From the IMG/VR virus record IMGVR_UViG_2548876945_000011, positions 1 to 41,326 of that record: 41,326 nt of DNA. One strand, written 5' to 3'. Made by a program: the position numbers and the translations under genes. This stretch comes from a virus (taxonomy: Duplodnaviria > Heunggongvirae > Uroviricota > Caudoviricetes). This document shows, piece after piece, positions 735-24,836 of this stretch. Each line of letters begins with the position of its first letter. Within the stretch, counting starts at the first letter, position 1. Under the pieces are notes generated by a model. It searched no databases. It was not told where the DNA came from and saw only the letters and a list, made by a program, of their open reading frames with translations.

Positions 735-1811
735 TCAGAGCAGTAAGTACGTTTTTTCTCTCTCATCAAGATACATTTTTGTTGTCTTCTCCGATGTGTG
801 GCCAAGTAGACGTTGAGCAAATTCTTCCCCACATGTTTCTTTGTACAATCGTCCAGCCAGACTTCTGATCTCGTGAAAAGTTGGTGGGTTTTCACTGAAC
901 TGGATACCTGTTAATTTTCTGGCTGCGACAAATTTCTTTGTCAGGCCGTCCGGGTGAATGCTGCCGTCAGGGCTGTTTTTTCTAATCCCGGCACTGATTA
1001 GATAATCCCCCCTACTTACCATGCGGCACTGTTCAACTACTGTACCAAGTCGTAAACCAGCGACAGGAAGGCTGAGTGACAGGGGGATAGCAATCATCAT
1101 TCCTGTCTTAATTTGCCTGATGTGGAGACGATCATCATAAATCTCACTGAACCGCATATTTGTTATGTCTTCGCGACGTTGTCCTGTTACAAGGGCTAAG
1201 TCCATAGCTAATGGGAACCATGTCGGAAGTTGATCTGCTGCCTCCCTGATGCAGTTGTATGTCTTTAGTTTCAGCCGTTCTCTTGTAACTACTATTTTCG
1301 GTGCTCTTGTTGGCGTTACTGGATTTTGAGATATACGTCCTTCAACAATGGCCTCGCGGAACATATCAGATAACACAGAACGCATTGATCCTGCCATCGT
1401 GTTTTTCCCTCCTTCAATCCACAAATCAAGAAACTCGGCAATATGGCGAGTGGTTATTTCTGTCAGTAAAACTCCTCCTAATTTTTCTTTTATTGTCTCC
1501 AGTTGATTTACCCGAATTTTATAAGTATTTCTGGACACTTTTCTCCTTATAAGAATCGTTTTGTAACGTTCAATCCAGTCTGCCATAGTAAATGAGTCGA
1601 ACCCTTTTAGTTTTTCAATTAAGGCAGCAGGAGAGTAGTTTTTGTATATATAATGATTTGCTTCAATTGCCTGCGCTACTGCATCTCTTCTTGAAATTTT
1701 ACCTAGTGTAAATTCTTCTTTCGTCAGAGGGTTGCGCCAGTAATATGCTTTGTCCCTCCTTCGATATGTTAAGTTTTTAGGCAAATTGGGATCGTATTTT
1801 TTCCGCTGCAT
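735..1811 (-). CDS. int: Tyrosine integrase, lambda Int family
   Basis: 358-aa ORF; N-terminal arm-binding-like region and overall similarity in pattern to lambda Int; next to the att core and overlapped by the xis ORF. Confidence 0.9.
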
Positions 1812-2596: not shown

Positions 2597-3406
2597 TTAT
2601 TCTTCTGAATTATCGATTACACTGTATTCCCCGGTTAATACAGAGGAGTCTGCCGGATCGATTGTCAGTGGTTCCTTTTCATCCATTGATACTGCACGCT
2701 GGATTTCAATTGAGACAGGCAGGTATTTAAACAGGCGACGAATAGCCGTTTTTTTTGCCATTTCTTCCCAGTGAGTTACCCATGGCCCGTTATTACCAGC
2801 CTTACTCTGGCTGCGCACCAGTTCAATCTGTTTGCGCGTCATAACTTCAAACTGAGTCCCTCCGTCTTTCAGTCTTGCGACAGCATAGACGTGGGTCACT
2901 GGTGCATCTTCGTTTTCTCCCGGGCGGTGTATTAACTTTTCATCAAGGCCAAATTCAAAACTAAACTCGTCACCTTCACGGACAACACGGGCTGACAGGC
3001 TGGCGATTTGACCAGAACGGCGAGCCAGATCAATCATGCCGCGATAACCAATGATTAGCTGAACGTTCTTTTTACCGCTCTTTTCGTTTTTATTACCAAA
3101 AGGCAGTAAATATGCGTGGCCGAGGGCGCTACCTGGCTCAAGGCCGAGCTGTGAACACTGAACGATCGCACTGACAAAACTCATGGTGTCACAGTTTCCT
3201 AGCGCCGGAACCTTACGAATTTCTGTGGTGGCGATACGTATCATTCGTTCAGCCGTCATATGGCGTGGGAGAGCTGCTGCCAGTTGCTCTTTCATTGATG
3301 GCTGATTAATAAAGCTGATCACGTCGTTATTTTTTACTGCTGCTGGTGCACGGTTTCCCTGGGTTTTTTGCAGATCGGCTTTTGCGATAGGTGGTTGCTT
3401 AGTCAT
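2597..3406 (-). CDS. recT: RecT single-strand annealing recombinase
   Basis: 269-aa product from [13 protein letters not shown]...; matches my memory of Rac RecT; AAGGAG RBS 7 nt upstream. Confidence 0.9.
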
Positions 3407-6050
3407 TTGCATACTCCTTAGCCCAGCGGGGCAGTGATAACGTTTTAATAGCTGGCCATTCATCGGTATTCAGGCAGTCAGCCAGGGTCCTCAGATTGCG
3501 GTGATATTCCTGCTGGCCTGCCAGTTTTGCTTCTTCGCCCATCATGAAAATCTCAACCGGGTAACGTCCGCATTCAACAGTTGTGCTGGCAACCAGAAAA
3601 ACGAAAGTTGGCAGCACGCCAAACTGTGCTTCATAACCGTCACTGTAGAATGCATCCTGAACGTGATAGCGGTAGTCGTAATAAGCCGTTTTGAATCGTT
3701 GAATATCCGCTGTGGTTTTCACGTCCATGATCCAGTGAAATTCAGGAATAATTTTGTCCGGACGGCACCGACACAAAATTCCTGTTTCCGGATCTTCCCA
3801 GTAAATTGATGATTCAGCGTGTCCGGCGCTTTCAACAAGCCATTGCCCCAGCGGCAAAGCCATAACGCTTTGATACATGAGTTCAATTTTCCGGCCTTCT
3901 TCCGCAGTGATAACCGTTTTTCCTGTGCTTGCGCATTCCATCAGAAACGCTTTCTCTTCTTCTTTTCCGGCGTTTGTACGGCGGTTAAATTCAGGTGCTA
4001 CGATAAAGCGGTTACTGAATTCTTCCGGTTCAAGTACCCGGCAGTGGAAAGCGGTTCCTAAATCGAGCGTTTTTGTCTTTGTAGTGTCCACGGGGGCATT
4101 TTTACGCCACAAATACAGTGCCGGAGTATCAGCAATGTCATCGAGCTGAGACTTACTGACACCGGGACCCGCGTGGTAATTCTCATTCGAAATTCCGTAA
4201 TAAATACCTGGCTCTATGTCTTCTACGATTACGGGATCTGCGACTTCGCCAGTTTCATCACTGCAATCGCGATGCGGATCGCTGCCAGCATTCTCATTGT
4301 GCGGATGTTCAGCGCCTTCCATTTCCTCCGGATCTTTTTCCTTAGCTTCAACCTGATTCTCTTCACCGAATGTTTCCTGGTATGTTGCGTCGCCCATCAC
4401 CGCACCACAGTCAGGGCAGTTATCCCCGCCAGTCTGACCGCAGGCATTGCAGACTATTTCCGGTTCCTGTTGCACTACTGGCTCAGGTTGTTTCGCATCC
4501 GGGCTGATTTTTTCCGTTTCTGGCTGGTTCTGGTACACAGAATCGCGAGTCTGGATCCCCTTAACCCATTTCGGATCGTTCGGGTCGCTAATCCCTTCAA
4601 CAAATTCTCCGCGAGAGGCAGCCAGTAATTTGTCTGCATCGACAGGATTTTTGGGCGGAATGTTTTTCCGGGCTTCATGGAGTTCTGCCCGCAGTTTCTG
4701 ATATTTCGCATCAACAGAATTTACCTGTGACTGAGCATCCAGCGACTGCGTGTCCTGATGATGTTCAGTTGCATCCGGTTCCACTGTTTCAGCCGTTGCC
4801 TGTTCATCTGCCATTGCGCAAGATGGTTGCAGTTTTTCTTCATCATCCTGTTTTTCTTCTTCTGTTACACGCTGCGGCATCGGGGCAGAGGAACGACCGC
4901 AGGCAATATCCACGATTTCTGGATCAGGGTTGGCATGATCAGTTTCAGTCAGTACTTTGTTCAGATATTCAGTGACGTGTGCGGGGATAACCTCGATCCC
5001 AATTGGTGCTTCTTTTACGGACGCAACCACGATGGCGCGGGAATAATCCAGCCCACCAGGCATGGTGATGAATTTGTCGCGGAAAACAGAAAAGGGTGGT
5101 TTATTTTCAGCGATAATTTCCTCGACACGTTTAGCGTGTGCCGGATGAAGGTTATAAATGTCCACGTCCATTGAACGAGCCAGTACGCCAGTGGCTACGT
5201 CGCGCGCCAGTGACGTCAGATCGTGAACGAAACCTTCGCCGCGATCGGTGAGGTTCCCGCCGCCAGCATTAGCGCCGGAAGCCGTGCGCGTGATGCGTGA
5301 AACACGATTTCCTTTTCGCCATTCTTTTGTCAGAAGACCGCGATCAATGTGTTCGGTATCCAGCCAGGCTGAAATGAAATTCTTAAATTCATAGGGCTGA
5401 TGTTTTTTCGTGATAGAGAACACTGCCTTAATTGCATCAGTCAGGCGGAGCAGGGCGGCATTATCCAGAGTTGTCGGTTCTGCCATGCTGCGTATGGCCA
5501 ACAGCAGATTCTGGACATAGCTGTTTTCCTGATCCATCTCAAGAGCAGTAATGTGTTTGCGTTGTTCACGGGTGGCATGATGCAGGTATTTCCGATCCCC
5601 GGCAGCATACGTAAAAATGTGCAGAAGACGCTGTGTGAACCGCAAAGTGGCTACAGAGACTTCGCAATCCTGGCAATCCTCGTGGGCGTCTGCCTGCGCG
5701 TTTTCTTCCTGGCCTCCCGCCAGTTCTTTGGTTTCTTGAGCATTATCCTGGTGGTGAACGTCGTCTGGCGCTGCTCCCGGTTTTAGTTCCCAGGTCATGG
5801 AGTCTTTGCTGAGTTGATAGCGTTCACTCCAGGTAAAATCGATCTCACCTTCAGGGGGCAGGTCATTAACGACAGGAAAATTCGTGGCAACAGCTTTAAA
5901 ATAGCTGCTCAGTTTTTTACCTGACTTAACGATCAGGTAGTCCAGAGTGGCACAGGTCGATTCAAAATCGTCGCTTGCCCACAGGACGACGTCAGGTTCA
6001 CCGGATGATTTTTTCGCTTTCCGTAACAGGAAGAGTGGTTTTGTGCTCAT
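3399..6050 (-). CDS. recE: RecE exonuclease VIII
   Basis: 883-aa ORF immediately upstream of and overlapping recT; N-terminus [14 protein letters not shown]... and length agree with Rac RecE. Confidence 0.9.
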
Positions 6051-9210: not shown

Positions 9211-9513
9211 ATGACATTAAAAGAGTTTATTAAATCATTGAGGGTTGGTGATGCTAAGAAATTCGCGGCCAGACTTGGTGTATCGCCATCTTACTTATCG
9301 CAAATGGCGTCTGGACGAGCAGCTATATCTCCAACCCGCGCCCTTATGATCGAATCTGCGACGGAAGGCCAAGTAAGTAGGGCGGAGCTACGACCCCATG
9401 ATTGGGAGCTTATTTGGCCTGAGTATGCGAGCGGCATTCGTTTGGGGCAAACACATGTAGTTCATGCTGAAGGTGATTGTAGTGCATGCTTATCTGATGG
9501 AGTTGATTCATGA
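9211..9513 (+). CDS. ydaS: YdaS-like Cro-type HTH regulator
   Basis: 100-aa ORF (MTLKEFIKSLRVGDAKKFAARLGVSPSYLSQ...) transcribed divergently from the repressor; matches my memory of Rac YdaS. Confidence 0.75.
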   Translation: MTLKEFIKSLRVGDAKKFAARLGVSPSYLSQMASGRAAISPTRALMIESATEGQVSRAELRPHDWELIWPEYASGIRLGQTHVVHAEGDCSACLSDGVDS

Positions 9514-9935
9514 AAATCAAGCATGAACACATCCGCATGGCGATGAATGCCTGGGCGCATCCGGACGGTGAAAAAGTTCCGGCAGCTGAAATAACCAGGG
9601 CTTATTTTGAACTGGGTATGACGTTCCCAGAACTGTATGACGACAGCCATCCGGAAGCCCTGGCTCGTAATACCCAGAAAATTTTCCGCTGGGTGGAGAA
9701 AGACACCCCTGATGCGGTTAAAAAAATTCAGGCGCTGTTACCGGCGATCGAAAAGGCAATGCCACCTCTGCTGGTGGCCCGAATGCGCAGCCACAGTTCA
9801 GCCTATTTTCGGGAGCTGGTGGAGACGCGGGAACGACTGGTGAGAGACGCTGATGATTTTGTCGCAGTGGCGATCGCTGGTTTCAATCAGATGAATCGTG
9901 GTGGCCCGGCGGGAAATGCCGTGGTCGTTCATTAA
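9510..9935 (+). CDS. ydaT: YdaT-like protein (CII-like regulator/toxin family)
   Basis: 141-aa ORF overlapping the ydaS stop by 4 nt (MKIKHEHIRMAMNAWAHPDGEK...). Confidence 0.75.
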   Translation: MKIKHEHIRMAMNAWAHPDGEKVPAAEITRAYFELGMTFPELYDDSHPEALARNTQKIFRWVEKDTPDAVKKIQALLPAIEKAMPPLLVARMRSHSSAYFRELVETRERLVRDADDFVAVAIAGFNQMNRGGPAGNAVVVH

Positions 9936-9956: not shown

Positions 9957-10250
9957 ATGACATTTACAAATGAAGGTCGAATTGTTTTTGATTTTGAGTA
10001 CGAAACTCCATTGCAGAGATTGATTATGTTAAGAATTTTCTGCTCCGGGAGTGGCGATGGTGGGCGTGAAAAGCGTTTTGAAGATCAGGAATTCCGACGT
10101 TTTTGTTGTTGTACGTTTGATGAGTTTGAGCAGGCTATCGCCAAACTTATCGAGATGGGGGTGATTCATAAAATAAGTTATGGATATCAATACGGAAAGC
10201 CATCAAGTGGTTACATCATCAAAGATCCAGATGAAATTATTCAGTTATGA
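9957..10250 (+). CDS. Hypothetical protein
   Basis: 97-aa ORF with GGAGA RBS, overlapping the start of the replication initiator gene. Confidence 0.5.
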   Translation: MTFTNEGRIVFDFEYETPLQRLIMLRIFCSGSGDGGREKRFEDQEFRRFCCCTFDEFEQAIAKLIEMGVIHKISYGYQYGKPSSGYIIKDPDEIIQL

Positions 10251-11212
10251 GTCTTCTTTTTGCTGAACGCCCGCTGGTTATTAACACGCAGCTGGCGATG
10301 AAAATTGGTCTGAACGAAGCCATCGTGTTGCAGCAGCTGCATTACTGGTTGAGAGATACCGGTTCCGGCATGGAATGTGATGGTGTTCGCTGGATTTATA
10401 ACACAACAGAACAATGGCTGGAACAGTTCCCGTTCTGGTCAGAGTCAACGTTAAAACGCGCATTTGCAAGTCTGAAAGCGCTGGGGCTTTTGCGTTGTGA
10501 AAAGCTCAACAAATCAAAGCGTGACATGACTAATTTTTACACGATTAATTACGAGAGCGAGCTTTTAGATGGTGGCAAAGTGAGCGAATCCATCAGGTCA
10601 AAATGCGCCGCTCCATCAGGTCAAAATGACACGATGGAAGAGGCCAAAATGGCACGCTCCATTGGCTCAAAACGACCCAATGTCATCGGGTCAAAATGGC
10701 CTGATGATCTTACAGAGAATACAACAGAGATTACTACAGAGAATAAAAACACTTCTCGTCCGGAAGCTTTGCAACCGGACATGCAGACGGCTGAACAGGA
10801 TTTTTTAACCCGACACCCTGACGCGGTTGTGTTCAGTGCGAAAAAACGCCAGTGGGGCAACCAGGAGGATTTAGCGTGTGCGCAGTGGATCTGGGGACGA
10901 ATCGTGAGTCTTTACGAGCAGGCTGCCAGCGATGATGGCGAAATCATGCGACCGAAAGAACCCAACTGGACTGCATGGGCCAATGATGTGCGCACAATGC
11001 GGATGCTGGATGGCAGAACTCACAGACAAATTTGCGAAATGTTTGGTCGGGTACAGCGGGATCCATTCTGGGTAAAAAACGTCATGAGCCCGTCAAAGCT
11101 TCGCGAAAAATGGGATGAGCTGGTTATTCGTCTGGGGCGTTCACCTGTACAGCGTTGCGTGAATCACATTTCTGAACCGGACACCGAAATTCCGCCGGGC
11201 TTCAGGGGGTAA
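10247..11212 (+). CDS. Replication initiator / replisome organiser (lambda O-like)
   Basis: 321-aa ORF immediately upstream of the DnaC-like gene; contains iterons inside its coding sequence, as lambda O contains ori. Confidence 0.65.
   Translation: MSLLFAERPLVINTQLAMKIGLNEAIVLQQLHYWLRDTGSGMECDGVRWIYNTTEQWLEQFPFWSESTLKRAFASLKALGLLRCEKLNKSKRDMTNFYTINYESELLDGGKVSESIRSKCAAPSGQNDTMEEAKMARSIGSKRPNVIGSKWPDDLTENTTEITTENKNTSRPEALQPDMQTAEQDFLTRHPDAVVFSAKKRQWGNQEDLACAQWIWGRIVSLYEQAASDDGEIMRPKEPNWTAWANDVRTMRMLDGRTHRQICEMFGRVQRDPFWVKNVMSPSKLREKWDELVIRLGRSPVQRCVNHISEPDTEIPPGFRG
10592..10698. repeat. Candidate replication origin: five iterons (consensus ATCrGGTCAAAATG)
   Basis: Direct repeats starting near 10592, 10615, 10638, 10661 and 10685 at about 23-bp spacing, followed by three ACAGAGAwT repeats at 10711-10745. 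Confidence 0.6.
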
Positions 11213-11218
11213 CGAAGC

Positions 11219-11719
11219 ATGAAAAATATTGCGACAGGCGGTGTTCTTGAACGCATCCGTAAGCTGGCTCCGCAGCATGTAACCGCGCCATACCGAACAG
11301 TGGACGAGTGGCGCGAGTGGCAACTTGCTGAAGGCCAGAAACGTAGCGAGGAGATCAACCGCCTGAATCGCCAGTTGCGGGTGGAAAAAATTCTGAATCG
11401 CTCAGGCATCCAGCCGTTGCACCGCAAGTGCTCGTTTGCGAATTACCAGGTGCAGAACGAAGGGCAGCGATACGCGTTAAGCCAGGCGAAATCCATCGCC
11501 GATGAACTGATGACCGGGTGTACAAATTTTGCGTTCAGCGGAAAACCTGGTACCGGGAAAAATCACTTAGCGGCAGCTATCGGGAATCGCCTGCTGAAAG
11601 ACGGTCAGACAGTGATTGTGGTTACCGTGGCTGATGTTATGAGCGCCCTGCACGCCAGCTATGACGACGGGCAGTCAGGCACGCAAAAGTTGCAGGACTG
11701 GATGATGCCGATACCGTAA
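11219..11719 (+). CDS. DnaC-like helicase loader, apparently C-terminally truncated
   Basis: Walker A GKPGTGKNHLAAAIG present, but the ORF stops at 166 aa, before the expected Walker B region, against about 245 aa for DnaC-family proteins. Confidence 0.6.
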   Translation: MKNIATGGVLERIRKLAPQHVTAPYRTVDEWREWQLAEGQKRSEEINRLNRQLRVEKILNRSGIQPLHRKCSFANYQVQNEGQRYALSQAKSIADELMTGCTNFAFSGKPGTGKNHLAAAIGNRLLKDGQTVIVVTVADVMSALHASYDDGQSGTQKLQDWMMPIP

Positions 11720-11876
11720 CGCTTAAGGAAGTGACAGAAGCATTGTTGCATTGTGCGGAACAGATTCGCGCGCCTGAATAATTAAATTTAGTGTTGTAAA
11801 TAAAATTTAATCCTTAACCGGAGGGATTTCTGCACCCTCAGAACATCAGGAGGCCGCCCGAAAGGGCGGTAATGAA

Positions 11877-12059
11877 ATGCGAAAGTTCAGAATAATTATT
11901 GAAACGGGAATAGCTGGTGGAGATTTTGAGGATGTATTCGAAGTGGATGATGGTGCGACACCAGATGAAATACAGGACGAAGCAAAAGAAATTTTCTTTA
12001 ACTACTGCAATTACTCATATCACGAAATAAAAGATGAGGAGGAAGAACAAAATGGCTGA
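11877..12059 (+). CDS. Small highly acidic protein
   Basis: 60 aa with 18 D/E against 5 K/R; AGGAGG lies 23 nt upstream, separated from the ATG by a CCGCCC-GAAA-GGGCGG hairpin. Confidence 0.45.
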   Translation: MRKFRIIIETGIAGGDFEDVFEVDDGATPDEIQDEAKEIFFNYCNYSYHEIKDEEEEQNG

Positions 12060-12228
12060 TTTTGGTTCAACTAAATACAACGTCAGTTTTGAAGAATGGC
12101 ATGAACTGTTAATGGACTATGCAGAGTTACGCGGTGGAAGTGCCGCTGATGCTGAAGCATGGCGTGATGACTACGAAGCAGGAAAAACTCCGGTCGAAGC
12201 ATATTGTGATGAGTGGGGCGATGAATGA
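12052..12228 (+). CDS. Small acidic protein
   Basis: 58 aa from MADFGSTKYNV... with 16 D/E against 4 K/R; GGAGGAAG RBS; start overlaps the previous gene's end. Confidence 0.45.
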   Translation: MADFGSTKYNVSFEEWHELLMDYAELRGGSAADAEAWRDDYEAGKTPVEAYCDEWGDE

Positions 12229-12439
12229 GCGAGATTAATTATCAGGAAGGACATGATTTCGTTATGCTTGATGGAGGGCGCTATATATTTTCCTCGCACC
12301 TGTGATAAAAATGATGAGCCGAGACTGTATTTACGGGACGCTGAGAGAATACCATAGAAAAGCTTATCTAACTTAAGTAGAATTGCTGCGGGTGCTTGAG
12401 GCTATCTGCCTCAGGCATGAACACCAAAGGCAGATAGAG

Positions 12440-12510
12440 AAAAGCCCCAGTTAACATTACGCGTCCTGCAAGACGCTTAACATTAATCTGAGGCTCAATC
12501 TATGAACGGC
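12440..12510 (-). ncRNA. sok: Sok-like antisense RNA (antitoxin of the hok locus)
   Basis: Minus-strand promoter TTGCCT (12545-12540), 17-bp spacer, TAACCT (12522-12517); the transcript would be complementary to the mok start region. Ends are approximate. Confidence 0.4.
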
Positions 12511-12558
12511 AAATCTAGGTTAGCCTCTTACGTGCCGAAAGGCAAGGAGAAGCAGGCT

Positions 12559-12714
12559 ATGAAGCAGCAAAAGGCGATGTTAATCGCCCTGATCGTCATC
12601 TGTTTAACCGTCATAGTGACGGCACTGGTAACGAGGAAAGACCTCTGCGAGGTACGAATCCGAACCGGCCAGACGGAGGTCGCTGTTTTCGTAGACTACG
12701 AATCTGAGAAGTAA
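12559..12714 (+). CDS. hok: Hok/Gef-family type I membrane toxin
   Basis: 51-aa MKQQKAMLIALIVICLTVIVTALVTRKDLCEVRIRTGQTEVAVF...; closely matches the HokD/RelF and HokC sequences I remember; in-frame mok-like leader from 12502. Confidence 0.8.
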   Translation: MKQQKAMLIALIVICLTVIVTALVTRKDLCEVRIRTGQTEVAVFVDYESEK

Positions 12715-23854: not shown

Positions 23855-24796
23855 ATGATTACTTTTGATCAGGCAACCGTTGACAGCTCTGGTGCCTTTC
23901 TCATCGGGGAGCTGGAGCGACTCGACCAGACGCTGAACCTGCCACTGGTGGGGTACACCTGGACCCGCGATATTCAGTTGCGTGAAGATGTCTCTATCGC
24001 AGATGACATTTCCAGCTGGACGAATACCAGCTTCGCCGCTGCGGGTACTGGTGCAAATCCGAATGGCAAAAACTGGGTAGGCAAAGACTCAACCGCTATT
24101 GCTGGCGTGAACGTGGATATCGGCAAATCCGGTAACCCGCTGAACCTGTGGGGGATGGAACTTGGCTGGACGGTCATAGAATTGCAGGCTGCTCAGCAGG
24201 TCGGCCGCCCGATTGATACGCAGAAGTATGACGGTATGCAACTGAAATGGCAGATGGATAACGATGAACAGGTATATGTTGGCGATTCCGCATTAAACCT
24301 GAAAGGCCTTGTTACCCTGGACGGCGTGCCTGTCAACAACGCTGCTAAAACGTGGGCAACCTCAACACCGGACGAAATCCGCGCAAGCATTAACCAGGTG
24401 CTGTCTGATGCGTGGGCCGCTTCCGGTTACTCTGTGGTTCCGCGTGATTTGCTGATCCCGCCTGAGCAGTTTGCTCTGTTGTCCAGCATCATCGTTTCAT
24501 CTGCGGGTAACCAGTCCCTGTTGACGTATCTTCAGACCAACACCATCAGCTATCACCAGAACGGTGTTCCGCTGAATATCCGCGCGGTTAAATGGCTGAA
24601 AGGCCGTGGTGTGGGGAATAAGGATCGCATGGTTGCGTACACCAACGATAAAAAATACGTCCGCTACCCGCTGGTTCCGCTTCAGAGCGTGCCGGTGCAG
24701 TATCGCGGCCTGTATCAGATCGTCACTTACTACGGCAAGCTGGGTGCAGTCGAGCCAGTGTATAAAGAAACTCTGTCCTATGTGGACGGTATCTGA
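23855..24796 (+). CDS. Major capsid protein (Mu-like head family)
   Basis: 313 aa at the major-head position; followed by a strong GC stem-loop at 24807-24822. Confidence 0.65.
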   Translation: MITFDQATVDSSGAFLIGELERLDQTLNLPLVGYTWTRDIQLREDVSIADDISSWTNTSFAAAGTGANPNGKNWVGKDSTAIAGVNVDIGKSGNPLNLWGMELGWTVIELQAAQQVGRPIDTQKYDGMQLKWQMDNDEQVYVGDSALNLKGLVTLDGVPVNNAAKTWATSTPDEIRASINQVLSDAWAASGYSVVPRDLLIPPEQFALLSSIIVSSAGNQSLLTYLQTNTISYHQNGVPLNIRAVKWLKGRGVGNKDRMVAYTNDKKYVRYPLVPLQSVPVQYRGLYQIVTYYGKLGAVEPVYKETLSYVDGI

Positions 24797-24836
24797 TAAC
24801 CAGAATGGCCCCGAAAGGGGCCTGAAGGAAACTGAA

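What the first reader, a model, noticed from the sequence alone, without database searches (positions are those of the whole stretch)
11848..12228. Tandem, translationally coupled small acidic proteins with a hairpin between SD and start codon
Two adjacent ORFs of 60 and 58 aa are strongly acidic (18 and 16 D/E against 5 and 4 K/R), a composition typical of DNA-mimic anti-restriction or anti-defense proteins. For the first, AGGAGG lies 23 nt upstream of the ATG, but the intervening CCGCCC-GAAA-GGGCGG hairpin would bring the two together when folded. The second starts within the end of the first after GGAGGAAG.
Basis: inference. Interest (0 to 1): 0.45.

Follow-up and report, generated by a model that had tools for sequence, protein, structure and literature searches.

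The report
Two acidic phage genes, split ribosome site
Two real but uncharacterised small acidic genes of an E. coli lambdoid prophage sit behind a widespread, portable leader in which a stable RNA hairpin separates the ribosome-binding sequence from the start codon, probably a split ribosome-binding site like those of phage T4 genes 38 and 25; nothing computed here shows that the proteins are DNA mimics.

Summary
ORF1 (11877-12059, 60 aa, 18 D/E against 5 K/R) belongs to Pfam DUF7167. ORF2 (12052-12228, 58 aa, 16 against 4) belongs to PHROG 519. Both evolve under strong purifying selection (pN/pS about 0.09), so both are real genes.

They are unrelated to each other. Outside one roughly 450-bp lambdoid module the two families occur separately, so they are neighbours, not an obligate pair.

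AlphaFold models are a beta-hairpin plus helix for ORF1 and a three-helix bundle for ORF2. Structure searches returned only generic or uncharacterised matches, none to Ocr, ArdA or other mimics. The DNA-mimic and anti-defence reading is therefore neither supported nor excluded.

The more informative result concerns the hairpin. The leader, AGGAG and 7-bp GAAA hairpin (-14.4 kcal/mol) form a conserved intergenic cassette found in 46% of complete E. coli genomes. It precedes at least five distinct gene types, and the start codon always lies 5-10 nt after the hairpin. The spacer carries no Shine-Dalgarno sequence of its own in all gene types but one. This fits a portable split ribosome-binding site of the T4 gene 38 type.

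Covariation in the stem is not statistically significant, and no expression experiment exists. Interest is moderate.

The parts
11774..11847 (+). Conserved 5' part of the intergenic leader. It starts 6 nt before the stop codon (TAA 11780-11782) of the upstream gene remnant. It contains a small GAGGG/CCCUC stem at 11821-11825 and 11835-11839.
   Evidence: Homology with 121 distinct contexts begins at 11774 (81 contexts), 11805 (24) or 11674-11676 (13). Read in the ORF1 frame, the leader has pN/pS 1.17, so it is non-coding.
11848..11853 (+). Shine-Dalgarno sequence AGGAGG. The AGGAG core is kept in 28 of 29 variants (one reads GGGAG). The sixth base is G, A or T and forms the outermost pair of the hairpin.
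   Evidence: Predicted duplex with the 16S 3' end is -10.3 kcal/mol. The G6, G7, A8 and G9 columns are invariant across 29 distinct cassette variants. Unpaired probability is 0.73.
11853..11870 (+). 7-bp hairpin GCCGCCC-GAAA-GGGCGGU lying between the Shine-Dalgarno sequence and the start codon.
   Evidence: The 18-mer folds at -14.4 kcal/mol, one of about six places in the window with an 18-mer at -12 or lower. 92.6% of pair cells are standard pairs over 29 variants, and two pairs change on both sides, but this does not exceed the shuffle controls. In the variant table (186 occurrences, each scored as a 40-nt fold starting at CAGGAG, which gives -15.5 for the reference hairpin), 161 fold at -12 kcal/mol or lower. 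No T-run follows the stem on either strand, so it is not an intrinsic terminator.
11871..11876 (+). 6-nt A-rich spacer AATGAA between the base of the hairpin and the ATG.
   Evidence: The spacer is 5-10 nt in every cargo class that follows the cassette.
11877..12059 (+). ORF1: a 60-aa acidic protein of Pfam family DUF7167 and PHROG 1997.
   Evidence: Pfam PF23768 scores 48.5 bits against a cut-off of 24.4; PHROG 1997 matches at E 7.9e-29. RefSeq annotates the 60-aa gene in the identical module of L001 as a DUF7167 family protein (WP_001224945.1). pN/pS is 0.093. The AlphaFold2 model has pLDDT 82: strands 2-9 and 16-23, helix 29-43.
12036..12042 (+). Shine-Dalgarno sequence GAGGAGG for ORF2, lying inside the codons of the ORF1 acidic tail (GAT GAG GAG GAA GAA).
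   Evidence: Read directly from the sequence.
12052..12228 (+). ORF2: a 58-aa acidic protein of PHROG 519, with no Pfam family. Its start overlaps the ORF1 stop (ATGGCTGA).
   Evidence: PHROG 519 matches at E 4.5e-23. RefSeq annotates the 58-aa gene in the identical module of L001 as a hypothetical protein (WP_000753060.1). pN/pS is 0.095. A profile search found 74 clusters at 50% identity. The AlphaFold2 model has pLDDT 87.7 and is a three-helix bundle.
12225..12305 (+). 26-codon remnant of the third gene of the chain, whose ATGA overlaps the ORF2 stop. The gene is 171 aa in other genomes and is cut here at 12256 by an 831-bp deletion.
   Evidence: Window 11676-12256 is 100% identical to L001 3001-3581. 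Homology then resumes at L001 4413.

Best explanation
ORF1 (DUF7167) and ORF2 (PHROG 519) are two genuine, unrelated small acidic accessory genes in the rightward early operon of a Rac-like lambdoid prophage. They lie between the replication genes and hok/sok and the Q antiterminator.

How they are translated (inferred):
- ORF1 is translated from a split ribosome-binding site. The 16S rRNA pairs with AGGAG at 11848-11852.
- The stable 7-bp GAAA hairpin at 11853-11870 stays folded. It shortens the 23-24 nt linear distance to an effective spacing of about 6 nt before the AUG at 11877. This is the mechanism shown for T4 genes 38 and 25.
- ORF2 is then translated from its own GGAGG, which lies inside the ORF1 tail codons. 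Initiation is either fresh or by ribosomes terminating at the overlapping stop.

The leader, Shine-Dalgarno sequence and hairpin form a self-contained, portable cassette. Recombination joints fall at its two edges, so different cargo genes are placed 5-10 nt after the hairpin and use its Shine-Dalgarno sequence.

What is shown: the genes are real, the families are identified, the hairpin is stable, and the cassette is distributed and positioned as described.

What is inferred: the hairpin enhances translation. Also inferred, with low confidence, is that the proteins act as small acidic binders or inhibitors of host or defence proteins, possibly nucleic-acid-binding ones. They are not classical B-DNA mimics of the Ocr or ArdA type.
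For: Genes are real:
- pN/pS is 0.093 for ORF1 and 0.095 for ORF2. Variable sites are concentrated at third codon positions. The leader read in the ORF1 frame gives 1.17.
- Family hits and RefSeq annotation agree.
- Both families have diverse members: 140 hits for ORF1 and 74 clusters for ORF2.

Operon context: integrase, RecE-like exonuclease, YdaS/YdaT, replication genes, hok/sok, YbcO, DUF1133/Q and terminase surround the region. No promoter-like site lies upstream of ORF1.

Hairpin:
- The 18-mer folds at -14.4 kcal/mol, one of about six such stable places in 82,618 windows.
- The Shine-Dalgarno core and the AUG are predicted mostly unpaired, at 0.73 and 0.77.

Cassette:
- Among 121 distinct IMG/VR contexts, the leader-AGGAG-hairpin unit precedes DUF7167 (82 contexts) and 35 contexts carrying other genes. 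These include DUF4014, a 43-aa peptide, unnamed proteins of 135-187 aa and an antiterminator Q.
- The ATG lies 5-10 nt after the stem in all of them. The one apparent exception is a class with an extra in-frame ATG 1 nt after the stem, whose likely start is 7 nt after it. The spacers are AATGAA, AAGAA, AGTGAAAA, AACAAATA and AACAGATA, which contain no Shine-Dalgarno sequence. Only the Q gene adds GGAG.
- Homology right ends cluster at 11869-11879 (38 contexts) or at 12256 (71 contexts). Left ends fall at 11774 or 11805.
- RefSeq gene starts agree with these positions.
- The cassette occurs in 2472 of 5426 complete E. coli genomes.

Divergent copy: the DUF7167 copy in L094/L095 (68% aa identity) keeps 7 of 7 pairs despite five substitutions, including a C-G to A-U change at the closing pair.

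Precedent: in T4 gene 38 a hairpin reduces 22 nt to 5 nt, and in gene 25 it reduces 27 nt to 11 nt; destabilising mutations lower translation (PMC3014915).

Acidity: it is conserved in DUF7167, with net charge from -7 to -18 and a median of -13.
Against: - There is no expression, toeprint or reporter data.
- Stem covariation does not exceed the shuffle controls. About 13% of cassette copies have weakened stems, with 40-nt folds between -5.4 and -10.1 kcal/mol against -15.5 for the reference.
- The hairpin segment is the most variable part of the leader, with 10 of 16 positions variable.
- A weak Shine-Dalgarno-like GGGCGG (-7.8 kcal/mol) sits in the 3' arm at canonical spacing. The stem could therefore repress translation.
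- DUF7167 genes in Citrobacter, Klebsiella, phAPEC8-like and Enterococcus phages use ordinary ribosome-binding sites without any hairpin.
- For the proteins, nothing points to a target. Fold searches gave only generic or uncharacterised hits.
Confidence: 0.55

Rival explanations
1. The two proteins are DNA-mimic anti-restriction or anti-defence proteins. On this view their acidic surfaces imitate the DNA backbone and titrate a restriction enzyme, RecBCD, BREX or a similar system.
For: - Both are strongly acidic, with net charge about -13 and -12 over 60 and 58 aa. This is conserved across DUF7167.
- They are early accessory genes of temperate and virulent phages.
- In Klebsiella phage VLCpiS11a the DUF7167 gene overlaps the start of an exonuclease gene, and exonuclease annotations lie under or beside the hit in two Enterococcus-type phages. 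From my own knowledge, T7 gene 5.9 sits similarly in front of the gene 6 exonuclease.
- PHROG 519 members of Kuttervirus phages were called candidate anti-CRISPRs by AcrHub. This is a prediction only (PMC9409062).
- Small acidic inhibitors that are not strict mimics exist, for example TifA (PMC11322646).
Against: - There is no sequence or profile match to any known mimic or anti-defence family in Pfam, NCBIfam or PDB sequences, and no PADLOC defence model matches either.
- In the ORF2 family net acidity ranges from +1 to -15. The conserved residues are aromatic core positions (W16, W37, Y41), not acidic ones.
- Five acidic residues of ORF1 lie in a tail whose codons also form the ORF2 Shine-Dalgarno sequence.
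- High acidity is not specific to mimics, and the uncharacterised DUF7167 relatives are just as acidic.
Confidence: 0.12
2. The cassette is mainly a DNA-level mosaic linker: a conserved intergenic stretch at which homologous recombination swaps flanking genes. On this view the hairpin is incidental, or serves mRNA stability or processing, and does not build the ribosome-binding site.
For: - Homology breakpoints pile up exactly at the two edges of the cassette.
- It occurs at 3835 places in E. coli genomes, up to 7 per genome.
- Upstream and downstream genes both vary.
- Stem covariation is not significant, and the stem is the most variable part of the leader.
Against: - A pure DNA linker would not need an AGGAG kept in 28 of 29 variants directly 5' of the stem.
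- It would not explain why start codons of unrelated genes sit 5-10 nt after the stem without a Shine-Dalgarno sequence of their own.
- The two readings can both be true.
Confidence: 0.2
3. The hairpin represses translation. It hides a weak proximal Shine-Dalgarno-like GGGCGG and holds AGGAGG too far from the AUG, so ORF1 is kept at a low level or is controlled by a factor that melts or binds the stem.
For: - GGGCGGU in the 3' arm pairs with the anti-Shine-Dalgarno sequence at -7.8 kcal/mol, 6-7 nt from the AUG.
- Structure near a start codon commonly lowers initiation (general knowledge).
Against: - The strong, nearly invariant AGGAG is left single-stranded at the base of the stem.
- T4 precedents show that this geometry enhances initiation.
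- The L094 variant changes the 3' arm to UGGUGGU while keeping the stem.
Confidence: 0.1
4. The ORFs are not genes: the acidity and overlap arise by chance in non-coding DNA.
For: None beyond their small size.
Against: pN/pS is about 0.09 in both ORFs against 1.17 in the adjacent leader. Pfam and PHROG families have members in distant phages. The AlphaFold2 models are confident.
Confidence: 0.01

Closest known systems
Split ribosome-binding sites of bacteriophage T4 genes 38 and 25 (Nivinskas et al. 1999; Malys and Nivinskas 2009; reviewed in PMC3014915)
   Same: The Shine-Dalgarno sequence lies more than 20 nt from the AUG. A stable hairpin lies wholly between them and reduces the effective spacing: 22 to 5 nt in gene 38, 27 to 11 nt in gene 25, and 23-24 to about 6 nt here. 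The Shine-Dalgarno sequence and the AUG stay single-stranded.
   Different: This case is in a temperate lambdoid prophage and has not been tested. The unit is not tied to one gene: it is a portable intergenic cassette shared by at least five gene types and present in 46% of complete E. coli genomes. The stem has a GAAA tetraloop.
Start-associated sequences (SAS/ESAS) of Cluster K mycobacteriophages (from my own knowledge, Pope et al. 2011; not checked here)
   Same: A conserved short sequence that includes the ribosome-binding region sits immediately upstream of the start codons of several unrelated phage genes.
   Different: SAS elements occur many times within one genome and have no bridging hairpin between the Shine-Dalgarno sequence and the start. 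The cassette here is single-copy in this window and in every fetched stretch, and is defined by the hairpin.
DNA-mimic anti-restriction proteins Ocr (T7 gp0.3) and ArdA
   Same: High content of Asp and Glu, small size, early phage or mobile-element genes.
   Different: There is no sequence or fold similarity. The proteins here are half the size or less. No charge pattern matching B-DNA has been shown.
Very small acidic inhibitors: T7 Gp5.9 and phi29 p56 (from my own knowledge), and TifA of Enterococcus phage phi47 (PMC11322646)
   Same: Small, strongly acidic phage proteins that block a host DNA-binding enzyme (Gp5.9 and p56 are about 50-60 aa). In Klebsiella phage VLCpiS11a the DUF7167 gene lies directly in front of an exonuclease gene, and two Enterococcus-type phage hits carry an exonuclease annotation under or beside the match.
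   Different: No homology or fold match was detected. No target or activity is known for DUF7167 or PHROG 519.
Accessory genes of the ea and nin regions of lambdoid phages (Ead/Ea22 neighbourhood)
   Same: Both families sit directly after Ead/Ea22-like genes, in either the leftward or the rightward early operon, within chains of small overlapping genes.
   Different: That is a positional class, not a functional one.

Membership tests
Pfam DUF7167 (PF23768) | Match to the family HMM above the gathering score. | tested here: met
   ORF1 scores 48.5 bits against a cut-off of 24.4, E 9.1e-13, covering profile positions 1-60 of 60. PHROG 1997 matches at E 7.9e-29.
PHROG 519 | Match to the family profile. 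| tested here: met
   ORF2 matches at E 4.5e-23 over profile positions 76-137 of 143. No Pfam or NCBIfam family matches.
Split ribosome-binding site (T4 gene 38/25 type) | A strong Shine-Dalgarno sequence lies too far from the start codon for direct use (more than about 13 nt). | tested here: met
   AGGAGG lies at 11848-11853 and the ATG at 11877, with 23 nt between them.
Split ribosome-binding site (T4 gene 38/25 type) | A stable hairpin lies wholly between the Shine-Dalgarno sequence and the AUG and brings the effective spacing to 5-11 nt, with both left unpaired. | tested here: met
   The 18-nt hairpin folds at -14.4 kcal/mol and a 6-nt spacer follows it. Unpaired probabilities are 0.73 for the Shine-Dalgarno core and 0.77 for the AUG.
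Split ribosome-binding site (T4 gene 38/25 type) | No competing Shine-Dalgarno sequence at canonical distance. | tested here: inconclusive
   The spacer has none, but GGGCGGU in the 3' arm pairs with the anti-Shine-Dalgarno sequence at -7.8 kcal/mol when the stem is unfolded.
Split ribosome-binding site (T4 gene 38/25 type) | The structure is conserved among relatives, with compensatory changes. | tested here: inconclusive
   92.6% of pair cells are standard pairs and two pairs change on both sides, but 89 of 500 shuffles reach the observed covariation score. L094 keeps 7 of 7 pairs after five substitutions. About 13% of copies are weakened.
Split ribosome-binding site (T4 gene 38/25 type) | Mutations that destabilise the stem lower translation, and compensatory mutations restore it. 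| not testable with these tools
   This needs reporter fusions or toeprinting.
Translational coupling of ORF2 to ORF1 | The start codon overlaps or abuts the upstream stop codon. | tested here: met
   In ATGGCTGA the ATG lies at 12052 and the TGA at 12057-12059. The arrangement is kept in 32 of 36 unique module sequences.
Translational coupling of ORF2 to ORF1 | Downstream translation depends on upstream translation. | not testable with these tools
   ORF2 also has its own GGAGG 9 nt upstream, so it may initiate independently.
Ocr / ArdA DNA-mimic anti-restriction proteins | Sequence membership in the Ocr or ArdA families. | tested here: not met
   Neither ORF has a Pfam hit to these families at E up to 1. 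PDB profile searches at E up to 10 show no mimic.
Ocr / ArdA DNA-mimic anti-restriction proteins | Fold similarity to a solved mimic. | tested here: not met
Ocr / ArdA DNA-mimic anti-restriction proteins | A surface carboxylate pattern that superimposes on B-DNA phosphates, and inhibition of a DNA-binding enzyme. | not testable with these tools
   Model coordinates and binding assays were not available. Only net charge could be computed.
Intrinsic (Rho-independent) terminator | A GC-rich hairpin followed by a run of T. | tested here: not met
   The stem is followed by TAATGAAATG on the + strand and by CCTCCTGATG on the - strand. The terminator scan does not list it.
Known RNA families (Rfam 15), including nut/boxB-like elements | A covariance-model match. 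| tested here: not met
   Between 11600 and 12800 only sok (12390-12564) matches; nothing matches the leader at E up to 1. No boxA-like sequence is visible upstream of the stem by inspection.

The most novel reading that the evidence does not exclude
The 97-nt leader, AGGAG and GAAA hairpin form a dedicated plug-in expression cassette of lambdoid phages. The hairpin both assembles a split ribosome-binding site and marks the exact joint at which accessory genes are exchanged by recombination. Any cargo placed 5-10 nt after it is then translated without needing its own Shine-Dalgarno sequence. On this reading, DUF7167 and the PHROG 519 protein are two of its commonest cargos and act as acidic inhibitors of host defence or DNA-processing enzymes.
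Probability: 0.3. Interest if true: 0.6.

Novelty: new member of a known kind. Interest (0 to 1): 0.4.

Why it matters
Split ribosome-binding sites bridged by a hairpin have been demonstrated in very few genes, the classic cases being T4 genes 38 and 25. This cassette would be a natural example outside T4. It is present in nearly half of complete E. coli genomes and is reused by unrelated genes. That makes the mechanism easy to test, and it bears on start-site annotation: database entries of 87-93 aa read straight through the leader.

The finding also shows how lambdoid mosaicism can exchange coding cargo while keeping one translation signal.

The two proteins add little by themselves. They are abundant, conserved, strongly acidic early phage proteins with no known function, which makes them reasonable candidates for anti-defence or host-takeover screens.

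Tried and rejected
- Literature: searches for DUF7167, the RefSeq accessions and the hairpin sequence found nothing on function. PHROG 519 appears only as a computational anti-CRISPR prediction and in a table.
- Family and defence libraries: NCBIfam and PADLOC gave no hits.
- Solved structures by sequence: PDB profile searches gave only chance-level hits.
- Tandem duplication: rejected, because the two family profiles are unrelated.
- Upstream-extended 87-aa form of ORF1: rejected, because the leader has pN/pS 1.17 and this window has no in-frame start codon there.
- Intrinsic terminator, nut/boxB or another known RNA family for the hairpin: rejected.
- Promoter in the leader: none found.
- Pas sRNAs of EPEC prophages: they lie near Q and the lysis genes and are unrelated.
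- K-12 Rac and Qin prophages: neither carries the cassette, so no K-12 expression data apply.
- Stem covariation: two alignments (21 and 29 variants) did not reach significance.
- Obligate ORF1-ORF2 pairing: rejected. DUF7167 is followed by other genes in Citrobacter, Serratia, divergent E. coli copies and virulent phages. ORF2 homologues follow Ead/Ea22 genes directly in Enterobacter prophages and occur alone in Kuttervirus phages.
Full report
**Setting.** The window is a Rac-like lambdoid prophage of E. coli. It carries an integrase (735-1811, minus strand), a RecE-like exonuclease (3399-6050, minus strand) and YdaS/YdaT-type regulators (9211-9935). It also carries a replication organiser (10247-11212) and a DnaC/IstB-like loader (11219-11719). 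After the two ORFs of the finding come hok/sok (12390-12714), DUF1367, YbcO, a DUF1133/Q-type antiterminator, lysis genes and terminase. The finding therefore lies in the rightward early operon, between the replication genes and Q.

**Observation.**
- ORF1 runs from 11877 to 12059: 60 aa, 18 D/E against 5 K/R, pI 4.05.
- ORF2 runs from 12052 to 12228: 58 aa, 16 D/E against 4 K/R.
- AGGAGG lies at 11848-11853, and 23 nt separate it from the ATG.
- CCGCCC-GAAA-GGGCGG lies at 11854-11869 and extends through G11853-U11870 to a 7-bp stem. The 18-mer folds at -14.4 kcal/mol.
- The ORF2 ATG overlaps the ORF1 stop (ATGGCTGA) and follows GAGGAGG at 12036-12042.
- The two ORFs are the most acidic of the 153 ORFs of at least 50 aa in the window.
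- Compact hairpins this stable (18-mer windows at -12 kcal/mol or lower) occur at only about six places among 82,618 18-mer windows on both strands.

**The ORFs are real genes.** The same module occurs in 323 IMG/VR contigs, of which 80 were fetched. It also occurs in many E. coli genomes, where RefSeq annotates the two genes as a DUF7167 family protein and a hypothetical protein.
- Over 36 unique module sequences, pN/pS is 0.093 for ORF1 and 0.095 for ORF2, with variable sites concentrated at third codon positions.
- The leader read in the ORF1 frame gives 1.17. The 87-93 aa database versions that start upstream are therefore artefacts of reading through the leader.
- ORF1 is Pfam DUF7167 (48.5 bits against a cut-off of 24.4) and PHROG 1997. 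ORF2 is PHROG 519 and has no Pfam or NCBIfam family.

**The pair is not an obligate pair.** The two family profiles are unrelated.
- DUF7167 relatives occur in phAPEC8-like, Guernseyvirinae and Enterococcus Herelleviridae phages, among others.
- ORF2 relatives occur in Kuttervirus and other Ackermannviridae, in Klebsiella phages and in Enterobacter prophages. A profile search found 74 clusters at 50% identity.
- Apart from the closely related lambdoid records, the listed matches of the two families fall in different phage groups.
- In Citrobacter, Serratia and a divergent E. coli lineage, DUF7167 is followed by other genes.
- In Enterobacter, the ORF2 homologue (79% identity) follows an Ead/Ea22 gene directly.
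- The ORF1-ORF2 arrangement belongs to one roughly 450-bp module, window 11805-12256, that moves as a unit.

**Structure and the DNA-mimic idea.**
- ORF2: with a 42-sequence alignment, AlphaFold2 gives a three-helix bundle (pLDDT 87.7).
- ORF1: with 51 sequences, it gives two beta-strands and a helix followed by an acidic tail (pLDDT 82.1).
- Foldseek against BFVD finds only uncharacterised phage proteins.
- Profile searches of PDB sequences and of PADLOC find nothing.
- Acidity is a conserved trait of DUF7167 (net -7 to -18, median -13). It is less so in the ORF2 family (+1 to -15), where the conserved positions are aromatic core residues.
- Five of the acidic residues of ORF1 form a tail whose codons (GAT GAG GAG GAA GAA) are also the ORF2 Shine-Dalgarno sequence.
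- The only literature link is a software prediction of PHROG 519 as an anti-CRISPR in Kuttervirus phages (PMC9409062).
- Small acidic inhibitors that are not strict mimics are known, such as TifA (PMC11322646).

An inhibitor role therefore remains plausible, but nothing here supports it.

**The hairpin belongs to a portable cassette.** This is the main new result. I searched IMG/VR for the leader only (TGCACCCTCAGAACANCAGGAG), with no requirement on what follows. Pooled with the loci fetched earlier, these gave 121 distinct contexts.
- In all of them, AGGAG is followed by the hairpin or a variant of it.
- Downstream lie DUF7167 (82 contexts) and other genes (35 contexts): DUF4014 (72 aa), a 43-aa hydrophobic peptide, several unnamed proteins of 135-187 aa and an antiterminator Q. 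Four further contexts have no ORF of at least 30 aa there and look like disrupted copies.
- The ATG lies 5-10 nt after the stem in every class. One class has an extra in-frame ATG 1 nt after the stem, and its likely start is 7 nt after it.
- The spacers (AATGAA, AAGAA, AGTGAAAA, AACAAATA, AACAGATA) contain no Shine-Dalgarno sequence. Only the Q gene adds GGAG.
- Homology with the window ends at 11869-11879 in 38 contexts and at 12256 in 71. It begins at 11774 or 11805 in most.
- RefSeq gene starts agree with these positions.
- The 77-nt cassette is found in 2472 of 5426 complete E. coli genomes, at 3835 places, and is unannotated. It is absent from K-12 Rac and Qin.

**How it probably works.** The arrangement matches the split ribosome-binding sites of T4 genes 38 and 25. 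In those genes a hairpin between the Shine-Dalgarno sequence and the AUG reduces 22 nt to 5 nt and 27 nt to 11 nt, and destabilising it lowers translation (PMC3014915). Here 23-24 nt become about 6 nt. The Shine-Dalgarno core and the AUG are predicted mostly unpaired, at 0.73 and 0.77. A divergent DUF7167 copy (68% aa identity, L094/L095) carries ACTGCCA-GAAA-TGGTGGT. It keeps 7 of 7 pairs after five substitutions, including a C-G to A-U closing pair.

The caveats are real:
- Covariation over 21 and 29 variants does not beat the shuffle controls.
- About 13% of copies have weakened stems.
- The stem is the most variable part of the leader.
- A weak GGGCGG in the 3' arm could serve as a proximal Shine-Dalgarno sequence if the stem melts.
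- DUF7167 genes elsewhere use ordinary ribosome-binding sites.

The hairpin is not a terminator, since no T-run follows it, and it matches no Rfam family.

**Verdict.** The hairpin interpretation is supported by position and distribution but is untested. The DNA-mimic interpretation is unsupported but not excluded. The proteins belong to already catalogued families of unknown function. The cassette is an apparently undescribed example, in a new setting, of a known translational device: no paper in the searched library contains its sequence.

Noticed in passing
window 11219-11782 (junction at about 11676): The DnaC/IstB-like helicase-loader ORF is only 166 aa; K-12 YdaV is 248 aa. At about 11676 it runs out of frame into the 3' end of a 66-aa gene that ends at TAA 11780-11782. 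A deletion or recombination has cut the loader, so the prophage may be defective for replication.
   Followed up: partly
window 12225-12305 (junction at 12256): Relative to E. coli 2009C-3133 (L001), 831 bp are missing after 12256. The third gene of the overlapping chain (171 aa in L001) is reduced to a 26-codon remnant. No complete E. coli genome among the top hits shows this exact joint.
   Followed up: partly
window 12390-12714: A hok/sok type I toxin-antitoxin locus lies here. Rfam sok scores 111.7 bits at 12390-12564. The 70-aa ORF at 12502-12714 contains the Hok/Gef domain (residues 25-66, E 1.1e-22).
   Followed up: partly
window about 24806, 28760, 34002 (both strands), 31158 (-), 16200 (-): These are the only other compact hairpins as stable as the one in the finding (18-mers at -12 to -14.5 kcal/mol). 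The one at 24806 follows the 313-aa ORF 23855-24796. They may be terminators or mRNA-stabilising stems.
   Followed up: no
L002 (PP818812.1) and L003 (JAIHTM010000290.1): A record named Actinobacillus phage vB_Apl-pPE4 is 99% identical to this E. coli prophage module. A MAG contig labelled Collinsella sp. also carries it at 94% identity. These host labels look doubtful, through contamination or misassignment.
   Followed up: no
P0001, P0002, P0004 (87-93 aa) against window 11811-11876: Some database DUF7167 proteins start upstream and translate the leader and hairpin (for example ...EAARKGGSE-MRKF). The leader has pN/pS 1.17, so these N-terminal extensions are annotation artefacts.
   Followed up: yes
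window 12031-12051: The ORF1 acidic tail DEEEE is encoded by GAT GAG GAG GAA GAA, which is also the ORF2 Shine-Dalgarno sequence. In phAPEC8-like phages the gene upstream of DUF7167 likewise ends in GAGGAGGAGGAG before the next ATG. Part of the acidity of such tails may therefore come from ribosome-binding-site constraints.
   Followed up: partly
L087 (Klebsiella phage VLCpiS11a) 2501-4025; Enterococcus phage MDA2 and phage ENP2309: In VLCpiS11a the DUF7167 homologue overlaps the start of an exonuclease gene and lies close to a Gp2.5-like ssDNA-binding gene. Exonuclease annotations also lie under or beside the hit in two Enterococcus-type phages. This is a possible hint of a link to DNA-end processing.
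   Followed up: no
window 11821-11839: A second small stem in the leader pairs a Shine-Dalgarno-like GAGGG with CCCUC. CCUC could alternatively pair with the true Shine-Dalgarno GAGG (11850-11853). The upstream stem may thus keep the real Shine-Dalgarno sequence free.
   Followed up: no
P0141 (127 aa): One database protein fuses a different 69-aa N-terminal segment (MPKYQINATIKKPGGG...) to a full ORF2 sequence. This is probably a frameshifted read-through from another upstream neighbour.
   Followed up: no
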